From a virus (taxonomy: Duplodnaviria; Heunggongvirae; Uroviricota; Caudoviricetes): a stretch of DNA of 64,000 nt. The position numbers and the translations under genes are program-made. Numbering within the stretch: the first letter of the stretch is position 1; each line of letters opens with the position of its first letter. The stretch lies in IMG/VR virus record IMGVR_UViG_3300029828_000006, positions 1-64,000 of that record; one strand, 5' to 3'. Shown piece by piece: positions 3,154 through 31,546 of this stretch. Under the pieces are notes generated by a model. The model worked only from the letters and a program-made list of their open reading frames with translations. It was not told the origin of the DNA and did not search any database.

Positions 3154-3533
3154 TGAGGCATATATCACCGGAAGAACTTATTGCGCTTCATGATGCGAAT
3201 ATAAACCGCTACGGCGGCCTGCCGGGAATGTCAGATCCGGGTAGGGCAGAGGCCATTATCGGGAGAGTTCAGGCCAGAGTTGCCTACGAAGAGATCACCG
3301 ACCTTTTCGAAGTCTCCGCCACCTACCTGGTGGCTACAGCGAGAGGGCATATATTCAATGATGCCAATAAGCGTACCGCGCTAAACAGTGCGCTGTTATT
3401 TCTACGCCGTAACGGGGTGCAGGTATTTGATTCACCTGAACTGGCAGACCTTACCGTAGGGGCTGCGACCGGAGAGATATCTGTATCTTCTGTCGCCGAC
3501 ACGTTACGTAGATTGTATGGTTCCGCGGAGTAG
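3153..3533 (+). CDS. doc: Doc toxin (Fic-fold kinase)
   Basis: 126 aa product matches recalled P1 Doc; coupled to phd. Confidence 0.9.
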
Positions 3534-28974: not shown

Positions 28975-29316
28975 TACGGCCTCACTAACAGGTTTAACAA
29001 CCTGCTACCCGCTGTCAAACAGGTGGCAGGACGTGACAGGGTTGACAGACTGGCGTTAGTGAAACCAGCAGGCCGAAGCCTCCCCATCACGCCCCACCAT
29101 AATTCGGGCGTAACGCGGTTTACGGACACAAAAATACCGCAATATCGGAAATCTGCGGTTGTCCGCACTAACATTCAGGCTGTCAAACCTGGTCGCAGAA
29201 TTTGCTACGACGGCATGAATATAAGCCTGAAAACATGGAAGATCAACTAAAAATTTCAGCAATGGATGACTTCAGTCGATGATGCAGATCATACATTCCG
29301 ATTTAGAAACAGCAAA
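28975..29316 (-). promoter_or_regulatory. structured leader with complementary 8-10 nt elements (candidate antisense-RNA control region)
   Basis: GCTGTCAAAC at 29011 and 29179 and its complement GTTGACAG at 29041, downstream of operator-like motif. Confidence 0.25.
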
Positions 29317-29332
29317 TTAATTTTCTAACACA
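29317..29332 (-). promoter_or_regulatory. conserved motif (rc TGTGTTAGAAAATTAA)
   Basis: Head of the leader preceding the small-ORF/Rha-like operon. Confidence 0.45.
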
Positions 29333-29384
29333 GATTATCGAGCGAGCATTTTCCGATCATTGGGATGTTTTGTAGACACACAGG

Positions 29385-30347
29385 TCATCCCCTAAAGCCC
29401 GCCGGGATTGACCAATCCTCACGGTCAAATTCAGACCGATAGCCACGCTGTTTCATCAGGTCAAAGGCTTCACCAATGGTTGCACACCCCAGGGAGCCAG
29501 AATAATCCATTGAGAAATCCAGGGCACTGGATTGTTTAGGCTTATTCACTGCGGTAGCGGCACTACGTATCCATGCAAATTTTTTTGCCAGCTTTTCAGC
29601 GGTACGATACAGAGCCTGCCGTTTTGCGTGCCCCTCGTCTGAACGACGCTTTGCAGCTCTCGCTTTTGCCGCCGCCAGGCAGTGGTTGGTATGTTCTTCC
29701 CTGATTACTGGTTTTTTATCCAGCACCCCATTATCCGCTTGAGAACTATCTGCTGGTGAAGCCTTTGGCTGAACCGCGCATGATCTTTCTCTTCTTTTTG
29801 CTATAGAGTGACTCTTATTTTCTATTGGCTGTTCATTTTGAACATGGGGGGACTTGTTCAATTTGAACAGGGGGTTCCCAGTTTCAAAAAAATAACGAAC
29901 CTTTGAAATCAACTGCTTAACCAGTTTTGTGGCGTTGGCAAATTTGATGCCCTGCTTACCCCCTATCTCCATTGCTACATGAATGAAGTGGAGAAATTGT
30001 GTCGTAAACCGATATACGTTACACACCTGGGCATTGTTATTCGCTACCTGATGTTGCTTAACAAGCATTCCGCACTTCGTCGCTTCAGCAAATGCCCGGC
30101 GCACAGTAGAAATACTGCGTCCTGTAATCTCGGACATATCAGCATATGAGCGACGGATCATGTATTCATCGGTAGACCCTGCCAGGTTGGCGAACTCGGC
30201 AATAATGGCGCTATGTGAAGGGGAAAGAAGACCGCTATGACGAGCAAAAAAACTCAACTGATGACCTTTGATTTTTTTGTGGTATTCAGTGTTGTTTTTA
30301 TACTCAGAAGTGTTGAAAGTTACTGAAACTGAATTTAAAATACTCAC
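29385..30347 (-). CDS. RepL-like HTH replication protein (tentative)
   Basis: HTH-like MSEITGRSISTVRRAFAEATKCGML; internal tandem palindromes; own operator-like motif. Confidence 0.35.
   Translation of the reverse strand: MSILNSVSVTFNTSEYKNNTEYHKKIKGHQLSFFARHSGLLSPSHSAIIAEFANLAGSTDEYMIRRSYADMSEITGRSISTVRRAFAEATKCGMLVKQHQVANNNAQVCNVYRFTTQFLHFIHVAMEIGGKQGIKFANATKLVKQLISKVRYFFETGNPLFKLNKSPHVQNEQPIENKSHSIAKRRERSCAVQPKASPADSSQADNGVLDKKPVIREEHTNHCLAAAKARAAKRRSDEGHAKRQALYRTAEKLAKKFAWIRSAATAVNKPKQSSALDFSMDYSGSLGCATIGEAFDLMKQRGYRSEFDREDWSIPAGFRG
29830..29874. repeat. tandem palindromes TGTTCAWTTTGAACA-GGGGG (candidate internal origin)
   Basis: Two 25-bp units at 29830 and 29855 inside the RepL-like ORF, plus nearby TTTCAAA/TTTGAAA inverted repeat. 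Confidence 0.4.
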
Positions 30348-30410
30348 CAGATAGTTCCGTGAAAAAATCTATCTACCGTATAAATCTATGGCAGTGGATT
30401 TATACACCCA

Positions 30411-30441
30411 AAAAGCCGCTTCTCAGCGGCTTTTGCTTTTT
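30411..30441. terminator. bidirectional rho-independent terminator
   Basis: AAAGCCGCT-TCTC-AGCGGCTTT with T-run. Confidence 0.6.
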
Positions 30442-30518
30442 TGGCAGTCGCTACCGGAGCAGTGACCGCGATCCTACTCGATCCCATCCACCAGGATCAA
30501 CAGTGTATATAAATACAC

Positions 30519-30534
30519 TATGTTAGAAATTTAA
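30519..30534 (+). promoter_or_regulatory. conserved motif TATGTTAGAAATTTAA next to AGTGTAT-N4-ATACACT palindrome
   Basis: About 170 bp upstream of RepL-like gene start. Confidence 0.45.
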
Positions 30535-30547
30535 CTTAACAAGGCAA

Positions 30548-31546
30548 TCACCCCCTTCTAGAAACGAAGAGTAACGGGGTGGTGTTTTTGTTCTCCTTCG
30601 GTGATAACTCTGGTTCTTTCTTGCCTGATACCGGTAAGCCATAAGTAGCATTTGCCCCAAGAGATTCAAGCATCGCAGCCACTATGCGGGCATCATCTTC
30701 AGACTGCATACGGCAGAGCGCCCGGCGCTGTTCTGCGCTGATAAAAACAGGCATTTCCTGGATAGCGTCACGCAAAATCCGGCGGCATTGCTTTGCATTT
30801 TCCCCTTGGCTTTCCATCATCGCTGTTTGAGCGCGCAGCTTATCTCGAAGCTGTATGTTTTCCACTTCAAGGAGCATCAATTCTGATTCCAGGGCTTCAC
30901 GATGTGCAGATTCGAGCATGGCTTGCTGATTTTTCATTGCTGAAAAGTGGTGAACCAGATCCGTAGCTGCGTTATCGGTAAAACCTTGTTCGATAAGTGC
31001 TGCATGAATAGCCGCATCGCGCTCTTCTACTGATTCAAGCATCAGGCTTTTCTTGTCGAGGCTGATATAGTTAGGCACAGTTACGTAATCAAAGCCGTGG
31101 AAAGACTTTACCAGGGATACCGATGAATCTGGACCAGATGTAGCCCACGACCAACCACCAGCACCAGAATTAATCATGCCCTGAACAATACGCCCGGTGT
31201 CTGTATCCAGTATTTCCTGCGTATGAGTAACAATGCCGTTGTCGTCAATCGAAATGTCGATAGTCCTGTTTGACGGCACGTTCTCCAATACAACAGGCTT
31301 CCCATCTACCATCACAACAGAGACTTCCGGCAAGTTCAGGCTTTTCGTTTTGTTATAGTGCATCGCCCGGCGACCATGACCGTAATAACCATACATCTCA
31401 CCCAGCGCGATACGCTCTTTTGTTTCTGGCGAGTTGAATGTGTCTCGTACCGACTGAATGACGTAATTTCGGTTGTTCTGCGGTGTGTGTTTGCGGATTT
31501 TCTCTACCAGGGAGAAGCGATCCGTAACAGTATTCAGTGATTGCAT
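30548..31546 (-). CDS. head morphogenesis protein, Pro-like (positional)
   Basis: 332 aa directly downstream of portal candidate; coiled-coil C-terminal half. Confidence 0.3.
   Translation of the reverse strand: MQSLNTVTDRFSLVEKIRKHTPQNNRNYVIQSVRDTFNSPETKERIALGEMYGYYGHGRRAMHYNKTKSLNLPEVSVVMVDGKPVVLENVPSNRTIDISIDDNGIVTHTQEILDTDTGRIVQGMINSGAGGWSWATSGPDSSVSLVKSFHGFDYVTVPNYISLDKKSLMLESVEERDAAIHAALIEQGFTDNAATDLVHHFSAMKNQQAMLESAHREALESELMLLEVENIQLRDKLRAQTAMMESQGENAKQCRRILRDAIQEMPVFISAEQRRALCRMQSEDDARIVAAMLESLGANATYGLPVSGKKEPELSPKENKNTTPLLFVSRRG

What the first reader, a model, noticed from the sequence alone, without database searches (positions are those of the whole stretch)
29385..30534. RepL-like gene with internal tandem palindromes, candidate second origin
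Inside the ORF are two 25-bp units TGTTCAWTTTGAACA-GGGGG and a nearby TTTCAAA/TTTGAAA inverted repeat; upstream are a 7-bp-arm palindrome and a motif copy. P1 oriL lies within repL under C1 control, which fits, but the RepL assignment is weak.
Basis: partly seen in the sequence, partly recalled or inferred. Interest (0 to 1): 0.5.

Follow-up and report, generated by a model that had tools for sequence, protein, structure and literature searches.

The report
Lytic replication origin inside repL gene
The two small palindromes inside this phage-plasmid's repL gene, with the A-rich stretch next to them, are very probably the core of its lytic replication origin; the same layout recurs in every RepL lineage examined, including phage P1, whose origin has never been pinned down exactly.

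Summary
The repeats are real and not chance. The window is about 97% identical to Escherichia phage D6, a P1-like plasmid prophage.

**The gene.** ORF 29385-30347 (-) is a true homologue of P1 RepL (27% identity over 92% of its length, E about 1e-16; Pfam Phage_P1_RepL on its cluster).

**The origin-like core.** The two 15-bp dyads TGTTCA-N3-TGAACA each follow a C-run. They sit just before a 47-nt A-rich tract ending in GATC.

- This aligns base for base with P1's "CCCCC-TGTCA-N3-TGA" pair and its AT2 element. AT2 is the only sequence shown by experiment to be needed for RepL-driven replication.
- P1's minimal active 87-bp fragment contains the second dyad plus AT2.
- Fourteen sequences from about eleven RepL lineages keep the same layout.
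- Half-site flanks co-vary symmetrically, spacers drift, and third codon positions are frozen.
- In the D6 type, the first dyad lies in a different reading frame. Selection therefore acts on DNA, not on the peptide.
- The core encodes a predicted disordered linker, as in lambda O/ori-lambda, without sequence homology to lambda O.

**Upstream.** There is a C1-operator-like site, a family-conserved promoter-like element, a hairpin, and a candidate antisense promoter.

**Limit.** RepL binding and origin firing are inferred, not shown.

The parts
29385..30347 (-). repL, the lytic replication initiator (320 aa). It has an N-terminal winged-helix domain (aa ~28-157), a disordered linker (aa 161-214), a long helix (217-266) and a conserved C-terminal IPxGFRG.
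   Evidence: ORF list. 97.8% identical to D6 orf20 'lytic replication protein'. P1 RepL: 27% identity, 92% coverage, E 1e-15 to 5e-16. PF26868 Phage_P1_RepL on cluster relatives. AlphaFold model.
29855..29874 (-). Origin unit 1, the one farther from the A-rich tract. Gene strand: CCCCC + dyad TGTTCA-AAT-TGAACA.
   Evidence: Aligns with dyad 1 of P1 and of all other lineages. It lies in a different codon frame from dyad 2.
29830..29851 (-). Origin unit 2, next to the A-rich tract. Gene strand: CCCCCC-A + dyad TGTTCA-AAA-TGAACA.
   Evidence: Aligns with P1 dyad 2, which lies within P1's minimal active T5 fragment. It is the better-conserved dyad in all lineages.
29781..29827 (-). A-rich tract, a candidate DNA-unwinding element. 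Gene strand: CAATAGAAAATAAGAGTCAC...AAAAAGAAGAGAAAGATCA, ending in a GATC.
   Evidence: Aligns with the P1 AT2 region, whose synonymous recoding abolishes RepL-driven amplification. A = 0.45 and AT = 0.62 over the 60 nt that start 3 nt before the end of dyad 2.
29882..29908 (-). T-rich tract 5' of the dyads, with the inverted repeat TTTCAAA/TTTGAAA. It corresponds in position to P1 AT1.
   Evidence: The T-rich tract is conserved but the inverted repeat is only partly kept in the 64% relative and is absent in P1 and the Enterobacter type. P1 AT1 is dispensable in plasmid assays.
29907..29919 (+). Single match to the IHF consensus WATCAANNNNTTR (AATCAACTGCTTA).
   Evidence: About 0.04 expected in the region scanned (my arithmetic). 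P1 has a predicted IHF site at the equivalent place, overlapping AT1. Weak evidence.
29760..29770 (.). Weak GC-rich palindrome AGCC-TTT-GGCT just 3' of the A-rich tract.
   Evidence: Stronger equivalents at the same place: P1 TTCCGGC-GGT-GCCGGAA, L091 GATCCGGA-GC-TCCGGATC, Enterobacter type with 9-11 bp arms. Read by eye, not tested statistically.
30471..30500 (-). Promoter-like element TTGATC-N18-TAGGAT, with GATC in both hexamers and one in the spacer. Candidate repL promoter.
   Evidence: Both hexamers are invariant while the spacer varies across lineages. Present in 33/33 non-P1 loci and 0/57 P1-type loci, and in L091, L092, L093 and L096. It scores 8/12 against the sigma-70 consensus, below the scan threshold.
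30502..30519 (.). 7-bp-arm palindrome AGTGTAT-ATAA-ATACACT, abutting the -35-like hexamer.
   Evidence: Kept (8-bp arms) in the 64% relative. In more distant lineages only the promoter-proximal arm is conserved.
30521..30534 (+). Operator-like site TGTTAGAAATTTAA, a probable D6-type C1 operator.
   Evidence: 10 sites with up to 2 mismatches in the window against 2.2 expected, 0/100 shuffles. D6 copies lie just upstream of c1, lpa, c4 and repL. TTTCTAA is conserved at this position in 6 of 7 lineages.
30411..30434 (.). GC-rich hairpin with A-run and T-run flanks, between pro and repL. Candidate bidirectional terminator.
   Evidence: Compensatory changes at three stem pairs across 7 lineages.
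30313..30341 (+). Candidate antisense promoter TTGAAA-17-TAAAAT inside the first codons of repL, pointing at the hairpin. The predicted countertranscript is ~95 nt, ~30348 to ~30444.
   Evidence: 10/12 match. The identical element is at the same place in L003, and TGCACA-16-TATAAT is over the repL start in L091. None was found in L005.
29317..29330 (-). Second exact operator-like site, TGTTAGAAAATTAA, between the repL stop and the c4 promoter region.
   Evidence: Its position corresponds to P1 Op51, the operator upstream of c4.

Best explanation
The region is the lytic replicon of a D6-type P1-like phage-plasmid, and the repeats are the core of its lytic origin (oriL), embedded in the linker-coding part of repL.

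**Proposed mechanism.**
1. RepL is made after prophage derepression.
2. Its N-terminal winged-helix domain binds, probably as a dimer, to the two dyad-symmetric 15-bp sites. The core TCA-N3-TGA is near-invariant (strict in 23 of the 28 dyads). Here the sites are TGTTCA-N3-TGAACA, 25 bp apart, each preceded by a C-run.
3. Binding opens the adjoining 47-nt A-rich tract.
4. The host replisome is loaded there.

Transcription from the upstream operator/promoter region would both supply RepL and pass through the origin.

**Status of each step.**
- Shown here: homology to P1 RepL; base-level positional homology to the P1 AT2 region; family-wide conservation under DNA-level selection; the linker location.
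- Shown by others, for P1 only: AT2 is required, and an 87-bp fragment with dyad 2 + AT2 suffices in trans.
- Inferred: RepL binding to the dyads, melting of the A-rich tract, and origin firing in this phage.
For: 1. **RepL homology.**
2. **Same architecture as P1.** The gene strand here reads CCCCC-TGTTCAaatTGAACA-agt-CCCCCCA-TGTTCAaaaTGAACA-gc-CAATAGAAAATAAGAGTCAC...AGAAAGATCA. P1 reads CCCCCA-TGTCAaaaTGAtA-CCCCCTCCCCC-TGTCAggaTGACg-tgg-CAATAAAGAATAAGAAGTCAC...AAAAAGATCA.
3. **P1 experiments.** In P1 the A-rich part is AT2. Its synonymous recoding cuts RepL-driven amplification about 7-11 fold. The minimal trans-active fragment T5 starts at ccccTCCCCC-TGTCAGGATGACG and ends just after AT2, so it is dyad 2 + AT2.
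4. **Family-wide layout.** Fourteen sequences from about eleven RepL lineages (18-64% aa identity to this one) all have a C-rich run, then xxTCA-N3-TGAxx twice at 23-25 bp, then an A/AT-rich 60 nt.
5. **Selection is on DNA.**
   - Third codon positions vary in 13/32 core sites against 247/268 outside in the Enterobacter group (p = 3e-11). The figures are 1/30 against 64/252 in the P1 group (p = 0.003) and 4/32 against 76/268 in the D6 group (p = 0.04).
   - Core nucleotide identity exceeds the rest of the gene in 27 of 28 lineage pairs.
   - Dyad 1 sits in three different codon frames among lineages. In D6 it encodes PLFKLNK, whereas dyad 2 encodes HVQNEQ.
6. **Dyad symmetry is maintained through change.** 85.7% of cells are complementary against 76.6% in shuffles (0/500). 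The covariation score is 0.219 against 0.080 (0/500). Slid controls give 15-44%. Half-site position 3 and its mirror position are A:T in 14 dyads, T:A in 4 and G:C in 2. The 3-nt spacers vary freely.
7. **Linker location.** The core encodes aa ~157-189, inside the predicted disordered linker 161-214 (pLDDT 30-38), between a winged-helix domain and a C-terminal helix.
8. **Phage-encoded specificity.** Half-site flanks differ between RepL lineages that share the same hosts. This fits a phage-encoded reader rather than a host factor.
Against: - No experiment on this phage exists, and no RepL-DNA binding has been shown for any family member. Huan et al. state they could not determine this.
- The dyads themselves have never been mutated in P1. 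There dyad 1 is dispensable and only the A-rich part is proven essential.
- GC skew shows no switch at repL in this window.
- There is no DnaA box in the window's repL.
- Dyad symmetry is equally compatible with hairpin or cruciform extrusion.
- The sequences compared are phylogenetically related, and the two dyads per lineage are not independent. The shuffle statistics therefore overstate significance.
- The older P1 papers (Cohen 1996, Lobocka 2004, Gilcrease & Casjens 2018) could not be read here.
Confidence: 0.75

Rival explanations
1. The dyads act as extruded hairpins, a cruciform, or an RNA structure. Examples would be a single-strand initiation signal after melting, or an mRNA element controlling repL translation. 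They would not be duplex binding sites for a RepL dimer.
For: Arms are conserved while loops vary, and symmetric changes keep pairing. The window's 53-nt segment folds as ssDNA at -10.9 kcal/mol, z = -5.0.
Against: - The strong fold in the window pairs dyad 1 with dyad 2, because they are near-identical.
- The equivalent P1 segment folds no better than shuffles (z = -1.1). An Enterobacter-type segment that covers dyad 1 and only the first bases of dyad 2 gives z = -0.85.
- Single 5-6 bp stems with 3-nt loops are marginal.
- G-T/G-U cells are not clearly enriched among non-Watson-Crick cells (8 of 32).
- Several dyad-1 copies are degenerate without loss of the layout.
Confidence: 0.12
2. The repeat reflects a functional peptide repeat in RepL (P-P-x-Q-N-D twice in most lineages), and the DNA similarity is a by-product of protein conservation.
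For: Distant family members conserve PPxQ[NS][DE] twice in the linker. P148 and Q158 are invariant in the alignment of eight distant members.
Against: - In the D6 and fergusonii types the first unit is out of frame (25-bp spacing) and encodes PLFKLNK, yet the DNA dyad is perfect. In L094/L095 the spacing is 23.
- Third codon positions are frozen.
- The segment is predicted to be disordered.
- The peptide motif is exactly what CCCCC-nGTCA-AAA-TGAy encodes in frame.
Confidence: 0.05
3. The dyads are operator sites for another regulator, either a host protein or a phage repressor. They would act in autoregulation or as a transcription roadblock within repL, and would not be origin elements. The functional origin would then be only the A-rich tract, or would lie elsewhere.
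For: Only AT2 has been proven essential in P1. Many lineages have GATC inside the half-sites (TGATCA), so Dam or SeqA could act there.
Against: - Half-site flanks change with RepL lineage although the hosts are the same Enterobacterales. The D6 and P1 types have no GATC in the dyads.
- Distance and order relative to the A-rich tract are fixed in all lineages.
- The P1 minimal fragment that works in trans keeps dyad 2.
Confidence: 0.08

Closest known systems
Phage P1 lytic replicon (repL with internal oriL; AT2 element of Huan et al. 2023)
   Same: - Homologous initiator.
- Origin-like core at the homologous place inside the gene: C-run + dyad twice, an A-rich tract ending in GATC, a T-rich tract and an IHF-like site 5' of the dyads.
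- A C1-type operator lies near the promoter region.
- Possible antisense RNA control.
   Different: - Half-site is TGTTCA/TGAACA (6+3+6, perfect) rather than TGTCA/TGAYR (5+3+5, imperfect).
- Spacing is 25 bp rather than 24, so unit 1 is read in another frame.
- There is no DnaA box next to dyad 1.
- There is no kilA. repL follows prt-pro and precedes c4-icd-ant, instead of following them.
- A different, family-conserved promoter-like element, TTGATC-N18-TAGGATC, is absent from all 57 P1-type loci.
- The operator sequence differs.
Phage lambda O protein and ori-lambda
   Same: The origin lies inside the initiator's own gene, in the segment between the N-terminal DNA-binding part and the C-terminal part. 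Dyad-symmetric repeats about 20-24 bp apart are followed directly by an A-rich tract on the coding strand, then a palindrome. A weak PHROG 'replication initiation O-like' hit exists (E 1.8e-7).
   Different: There is no detectable sequence homology in a profile comparison (hhalign probability 1.3%). There are two repeats rather than four, and the repeat sequence is unrelated. This is an analogue in mechanism, not a family member.
Winged-helix Rep initiators of iteron plasmids (Rep3/RepA type) and MarR-like winged-helix dimers
   Same: The N-terminal domain is a winged helix. Foldseek finds MarR-family dimers bound to palindromic operators and a plasmid Rep-DNA complex (5kbj) among the weak matches.
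   Different: All matches are weak (E >= 3e-3, TM 0.2). There is no Pfam Rep3 or MarR hit. The sites are inverted repeats in tandem, not long direct iterons.

Membership tests
P1-type lytic replicon (RepL, Pfam PF26868 Phage_P1_RepL, with internal oriL) | Initiator protein homologous to P1 RepL over most of its length. | tested here: met
   tblastn gives 27% identity, 92% coverage, E 1e-15 to 5e-16 to P1 RepL. PF26868 is recorded for the 98%-identical cluster and for all relatives. The local Pfam copy lacks this model, so hmmscan gave only a weak HTH_36 hit.
P1-type lytic replicon (RepL, Pfam PF26868 Phage_P1_RepL, with internal oriL) | A cis-acting A/T-rich element inside repL, at the position of P1 AT2. 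| tested here: met
   A protein-guided codon alignment and a DNA alignment both place window 29781-29827 on P1 AT2, with the dyads directly 5' of it.
P1-type lytic replicon (RepL, Pfam PF26868 Phage_P1_RepL, with internal oriL) | RepL-dependent replication of a DNA fragment carrying the internal element. | not testable with these tools
   Shown only for P1 (PMC9948254). A wet experiment is needed for the D6 type.
P1-type lytic replicon (RepL, Pfam PF26868 Phage_P1_RepL, with internal oriL) | Operon P53-kilA-repL under C1 operator Op53. | tested here: not met
   There is no kilA. repL follows pro after a hairpin. The P1 operator consensus has no match with up to 3 mismatches. A different operator-like motif is present upstream. 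Repressor control is therefore plausible, but the operon structure differs.
P1-type lytic replicon (RepL, Pfam PF26868 Phage_P1_RepL, with internal oriL) | Antisense RNA opposing the replicon transcript (P53as in P1). | tested here: inconclusive
   A 10/12 antisense promoter-like site lies at 30313-30341 facing a bidirectional hairpin. It is conserved in L003 and analogous in L091, but not found in L005. There are no expression data.
Lambda O / ori-lambda type | Initiator homologous to lambda O. | tested here: not met
   hhalign of the RepL profile against lambda O gives probability 1.3%. There is only a weak PHROG 391 hit.
Lambda O / ori-lambda type | Dyad-symmetric repeats plus an A/T-rich tract inside the initiator gene. 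| tested here: met
   The layouts were compared directly. The repeat number differs: 2 here against 4 in lambda.
Firmicute plasmid RepL (Pfam PF05732) and iteron-plasmid Rep3 (PF01051) | A match to the family profile. | tested here: not met
   Neither family was reported by hmmscan at E <= 1. The shared name 'RepL' does not reflect homology (my knowledge for PF05732).

The most novel reading that the evidence does not exclude
The paired C-run + TCA-N3-TGA dyads are the long-sought RepL recognition sites that, with the adjoining A-rich tract, define oriL throughout the RepL family, P1 included. Their lineage-specific flanks set initiator/origin specificity. In most lineages the replicon is additionally governed by a conserved GATC-bearing promoter and a countertranscript against the repL leader.
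Probability: 0.5. Interest if true: 0.6.

Novelty: new member of a known kind. Interest (0 to 1): 0.5.

Why it matters
**An open question in P1 biology.** P1 RepL/oriL is widely used in PAC vectors, copy-number amplifiers and biosensor amplifiers. [quoted passage not shown]

**What the comparison adds.** It gives a concrete, testable model. The origin would be a roughly 100-bp core made of two dyads and an unwinding tract. Dyad 2 is the key candidate RepL site, and half-site position 3 is a likely specificity determinant.

**Practical consequences.**
- It predicts orthogonal initiator/origin pairs (D6 type, P1 type, Enterobacter type) usable as independent inducible amplifiers.
- It helps annotate the lytic origin in the many D6-like and P1-like phage-plasmids that carry resistance genes.

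For this window alone the result is the expected one: a D6-like element has a P1-like lytic replicon.

Tried and rejected
- **GC-skew switch at repL**, as reported for P1: none. The skew follows gene orientation.
- **DnaA boxes**: no exact TTATNCACA box in the scanned 29300-30560; of the four 1-mismatch hits, two lie inside repL and two upstream of it.
- **Upstream 'motif copy' of the dyad**: not found.
- **The 14/14 inverted repeat** at 29462-29475 / 29754-29767: not conserved beyond the narrow D6 group, so probably incidental.
- **Homology to lambda O**: rejected.
- **Fold search**: only generic winged-helix matches.
- **NCBIfam**: no hit.
- **Local Pfam**: only a sub-threshold HTH_36 hit.
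- **Two genome-contig scans and one metagenome scan**: essentially nothing new. The family is small, with 34 clusters at E <= 1e-3 among 1.84 billion representatives.
- **P1 C1 operator consensus**: absent from the window.
- **Rfam**: no family for the repL leader or antisense region.
- **Papers not held in the library**: Gilcrease & Casjens 2018, Lobocka 2004 and Cohen 1996. I cannot exclude that the P1 dyads were noted there.
Full report
**Identity of the locus.** Window 29200-30600 is 97.0% identical to Escherichia phage D6, a P1-like plasmid prophage. The ORF at 29385-30347 on the minus strand (320 aa) corresponds to D6 orf20, annotated 'lytic replication protein, similar to P1 repL'.

The gene order on the minus strand is ddrA, ddrB, two small ORFs, prt, pro, repL, icd, then a Roi/Ant-like gene. 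A CHAP lysin lies on the other strand, followed by darB.

**Observation.**
- The two 20-nt units lie at 29830-29849 and 29855-29874, 25 bp apart. Each contains a perfect TGTTCA-N3-TGAACA palindrome followed by a G-run.
- The pattern has 3 hits with up to 1 mismatch in 64 kb, against 0.23 expected. The only exact hits are these two.
- The TTTCAAA/TTTGAAA inverted repeat (29882-29888 / 29902-29908) and the upstream 7-bp-arm palindrome (30502-30519) are also there.
- A further copy of the dyad motif upstream does not exist.

**Is it RepL?** Yes.
- tblastn finds P1, P7, SJ46, RCS47 and other P1-type RepL proteins at 27-31% identity over 83-92% of the protein for the full-length matches, with E from 1e-16 to 2e-13.
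- The big protein database records Pfam PF26868, 'Phage_P1_RepL', for the 98%-identical cluster and all relatives.
- My local Pfam copy lacks that model, which is why hmmscan showed only a weak HTH_36 hit at aa 41-93.
- The family is small: 34 clusters at E <= 1e-3 among 1.84 billion representatives. In the plasmid collection it is almost confined to Escherichia, Salmonella, Shigella, Klebsiella, Enterobacter and a few other Enterobacterales, plus one Vibrio record.

**The key comparison.** On the gene strand the window reads:

...GTTCGTTATTTTTTTGAAACTGGGAA-CCCCC-TGTTCAaatTGAACA-agt-CCCCCCA-TGTTCAaaaTGAACA-gc-CAATAGAAAATAAGAGTCACTCTATAGCAAAAAGAAGAGAAAGATCA.

At the aligned place, P1 repL reads:

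...GCTTTATTTAATTTTTTATCCACA-CCCCCA-TGTCAaaaTGAtA-CCCCCTCCCCC-TGTCAggaTGACg-tgg-CAATAAAGAATAAGAAGTCACAAGTTAAAAAAACAAAAAGATCA.

- The P1 A-rich stretch is exactly the 43-bp 'AT2' of Huan et al. 2023 (PMC9948254). Synonymous recoding of AT2 reduced RepL-driven amplification about 7-11 fold and abolished the copy-number rise. Mutating AT1, the IHF site or the two DnaA boxes did not.
- Their minimal fragment still fully active in trans, T5, was built from two oligonucleotides. These show that it starts at ccccTCCCCC-TGTCAGGATGACG and ends at ...GATCAGTTTCCGGCGGTGCCGG. It therefore contains dyad 2, AT2 and most of a GC-rich palindrome, but not dyad 1.
- The paper never mentions palindromes or iterons. 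It says that the role of the 'cytosine/guanine rich' stretch before AT2, and whether RepL binds there, were not determined.

**Family-wide conservation.** I collected the gene from 96 loci.
- D6 group: 23 sequences.
- A 64%-identical E. fergusonii type: 2.
- Enterobacter/Klebsiella/Raoultella type and relatives: 9 (one, L090, is the same contig range as L030).
- P1 group: 57.
- Six more distant lineages (L091-L096), including Plesiomonas and Pantoea.

Fourteen representative sequences were then inspected. Every one has a C-rich run followed by xxTCA-N3-TGAxx, twice, 23-25 bp apart. A 60-nt stretch with 58-70% A+T and 33-55% A on the coding strand follows immediately.

Examples of the half-sites:
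- TGATCA-N3-TGATCA/G in the Enterobacter type;
- TGCTCA-N3-TGAACA in L088;
- GATCA-AAA-TGATC in L093, L095 and L096;
- AGTCA-AAA-TGACC in L091.

The dyad nearer the A-rich tract (dyad 2) is always the better palindrome. In L094 and L095 the farther dyad (dyad 1) is degenerate. This matches the dispensability of dyad 1 in P1.

**Selection acts on the DNA.**
- *Third codon positions.* Within groups they are far less variable in the core than elsewhere.
  - Enterobacter group: 13/32 against 247/268, p = 3e-11.
  - P1 group: 1/30 against 64/252, p = 0.003.
  - D6 group: 4/32 against 76/268, p = 0.04.
- *Location of the minimum.* The diversity minimum of the whole gene falls on the dyads and the start of the A-rich tract in the P1 and Enterobacter groups. 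In the D6 group it spans the T-rich tract and the dyads (gene-strand windows 361-480 of the trimmed alignment). In every group this lies next to a hypervariable protein segment.
- *Between lineages.* Core nucleotide identity exceeds that of the rest of the gene in 27 of 28 pairs. For the window against P1 it is 56% against 42%, at 29% amino-acid identity.
- *Spacers.* Variation inside the dyads falls on the 3-nt spacers.
- *Reading frame.* Dyad 2 is always in the same codon frame. Dyad 1 is in that frame only when the spacing is 24. In the D6 and fergusonii types (spacing 25) it is shifted and encodes PLFKLNK instead of the P-x-Q-N-D-like peptide. In L094/L095 (spacing 23) it is in the third frame. 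The conserved 'PPxQND' peptide seen twice in distant members is therefore best read as the translation of the DNA motif, not the cause of it.
- *Symmetry.* On 28 aligned dyads, 85.7% of arm cells are complementary against 76.6% in column shuffles (0/500). The covariation score is 0.219 against 0.080 (0/500). Slid registers give 15-44%. The mirrored third half-site position is A:T in 14 dyads, T:A in 4 and G:C in 2.

These statistics are inflated by relatedness and by using two dyads per lineage. The direction of the evidence is nonetheless consistent.

**Protein context.** An AlphaFold model from a 15-sequence alignment (mean pLDDT 65) gives:
- a confident winged-helix domain at aa ~28-157, with the recognition helix at 79-91 and a beta wing at 95-114;
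- a disordered linker at aa 161-214 (pLDDT 30-38);
- a long helix at 217-266;
- a small C-terminal helix.

The origin core (gene nt ~470-567, aa ~157-189) lies in the linker. Foldseek against the PDB gives only weak, generic winged-helix matches: MarR-family dimers on palindromic operators, TFE, RPC62 and a plasmid Rep-DNA complex. The nearly invariant S-x-x-T-V-R-R-A of the recognition helix fits the near-invariant TCA/TGA core, which is strict in 23 of the 28 dyads. That link is inference.

**Analogy with lambda.** Ori-lambda also lies inside the O gene. It has four dyad-symmetric iterons, directly followed by an A-rich tract on the coding strand and a palindrome. A profile comparison finds no homology between RepL and lambda O (probability 1.3%). 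There is only a weak PHROG 'O-like' hit. The element therefore works like ori-lambda but is not a member of that family.

**Regulatory surroundings.**

*Downstream of repL.* Rfam finds the C4 antisense RNA (29019-29104, 68.8 bits against a gathering score of 45) and its a1/b1 target element (29172-29224, 54.4 bits against 46.7). The immI module c4-icd-ant therefore follows repL here, whereas in P1 it precedes kilA-repL.

*Operator-like motif.* TGTTAGAAANTTAA occurs 10 times in the window with up to 2 mismatches, against 2.2 expected. In D6 its copies sit just upstream of c1, lpa, c4 and repL. These are the classical targets of P1 C1. The P1 operator consensus itself is absent. One copy lies at 30521-30534, between pro and repL. 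Another lies at 29317-29330, before c4.

*Promoter-like element.* Next to the upstream copy are the 7-bp-arm palindrome and then TTGATC-N18-TAGGAT(CG) at 30500-30471 on the minus strand. Its two hexamers are invariant across lineages while the spacer is not.
- It is present in 33/33 non-P1 loci and in none of the 57 P1-type loci.
- It is also present in L091, L092, L093 and L096.
- It carries GATC in both hexamers.

*Hairpin and antisense promoter.* A hairpin at 30411-30434 follows, with compensatory changes across lineages. It scores as a terminator mainly in the antisense direction. A 10/12 promoter-like site at 30313-30341 on the plus strand, inside the first codons of repL, points at it. 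The same site is present in L003, and an analogous one in L091. This suggests a countertranscript of about 95 nt against the repL leader, reminiscent of P1's P53as. None of this is supported by expression data.

**Alternatives.**
- A peptide-level repeat is contradicted by the frame shifts and the frozen third positions.
- Hairpin or cruciform function cannot be excluded. However, the strong ssDNA fold in the window (z = -5) comes from pairing the two near-identical dyads with each other, and it is not seen in P1 (z = -1.1). The Enterobacter-type segment folded (z = -0.85) covers dyad 1 but only the first bases of dyad 2, so it does not test that pairing.
- A host-factor site is unlikely, because half-site flanks track the RepL lineage within the same host range, and GATC is not universal in the dyads.
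- GC skew and DnaA boxes give no support for an origin here. Neither was functionally required in P1 either.

**Verdict.** This is the lytic replicon of a D6-type phage-plasmid, and its origin-like core sits inside repL. As a kind of system it is known: P1 oriL is internal to repL.

What appears to be new, within the literature I could read, is that paired dyads next to the unwinding tract are a family-wide feature under DNA-level selection. This gives a precise, testable candidate for the RepL recognition site, which is still undefined in P1. I could not read the 1996, 2004 and 2018 primary papers, so priority is uncertain.

Noticed in passing
window 29019-29104 (-) and 29172-29224 (-): The C4 antisense RNA (Rfam RF01695, 68.8 bits) and its a1/b1 target element (RF03163, 54.4 bits) lie in the gap between repL and icd. 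The immI immunity module therefore sits directly downstream of repL, the reverse of the P1 order. A sub-threshold isrK match overlaps at 29130-29211.
   Followed up: yes
window 6595, 8005, 12438, 16967, 17123, 18372, 19415, 29317, 30521, 61449: A dispersed asymmetric motif, TGTTAGAAANTTAA, has 10 sites against 2.2 expected. In phage D6 the copies lie just upstream of c1, lpa, c4 and repL. It is probably the D6-type C1 operator, and it differs from the P1 consensus ATTGCTCTAATAAATTT, which has no match here.
   Followed up: partly
window 30471-30500 (-); also L003-L006, L007-L030, L087-L093, L096: The promoter-like element TTGATC-N18-TAGGATC(G) lies upstream of repL, with invariant hexamers, a variable spacer, and GATC in both hexamers. 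It is conserved in nearly all non-P1 RepL lineages and absent from all 57 P1-type loci. It may be Dam-sensitive.
   Followed up: partly
window 30313-30341 (+) and 30411-30444: A strong antisense promoter-like site (TTGAAA-17-TAAAAT, 10/12) inside the first codons of repL faces a conserved bidirectional hairpin. It would give a countertranscript of about 95 nt covering the repL leader and ribosome-binding region. The same site is present in L003 and a similar one in L091, but none was found in L005.
   Followed up: partly
window 29760-29770; L002 ~3484-3500; L091; L004, L005, L087, L089: A GC-rich inverted repeat lies immediately 3' of the A-rich tract in most lineages: P1 TTCCGGC-GGT-GCCGGAA, L091 GATCCGGA-GC-TCCGGATC, and 9-11 bp arms in the Enterobacter type. 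It is only weak in this window. Most of it is included in P1's minimal active fragment.
   Followed up: partly
window 29462-29475 and 29754-29767: A perfect 14-nt inverted repeat lies within repL (CAAAGGCTTCACCA / TGGTGAAGCCTTTG, 278 nt apart). It shrinks to 9 nt in the 92% relative and is absent in other lineages, so it is probably incidental.
   Followed up: yes
L003-L005, L087-L089, L091-L094, L096 (gene tables): The order prt - pro - repL, usually followed by a small gene on the opposite strand (a CHAP lysin in the closer lineages), is the common arrangement across the RepL family. The P1 arrangement (immI - kilA - repL) is the exception. In a Pantoea contig (L095) a C1-type repressor gene lies upstream of repL.
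   Followed up: partly
L004, L005, L087, L089, L092-L096 (dyads): In many lineages the origin dyads are TGATCA or GATCA half-sites, giving up to four GATC sites in 40 bp. From memory, this resembles the TGATCA/G hexamers of the P1 pac site. It hints at Dam/SeqA control of the origin in those lineages but not in D6 or P1.
   Followed up: no
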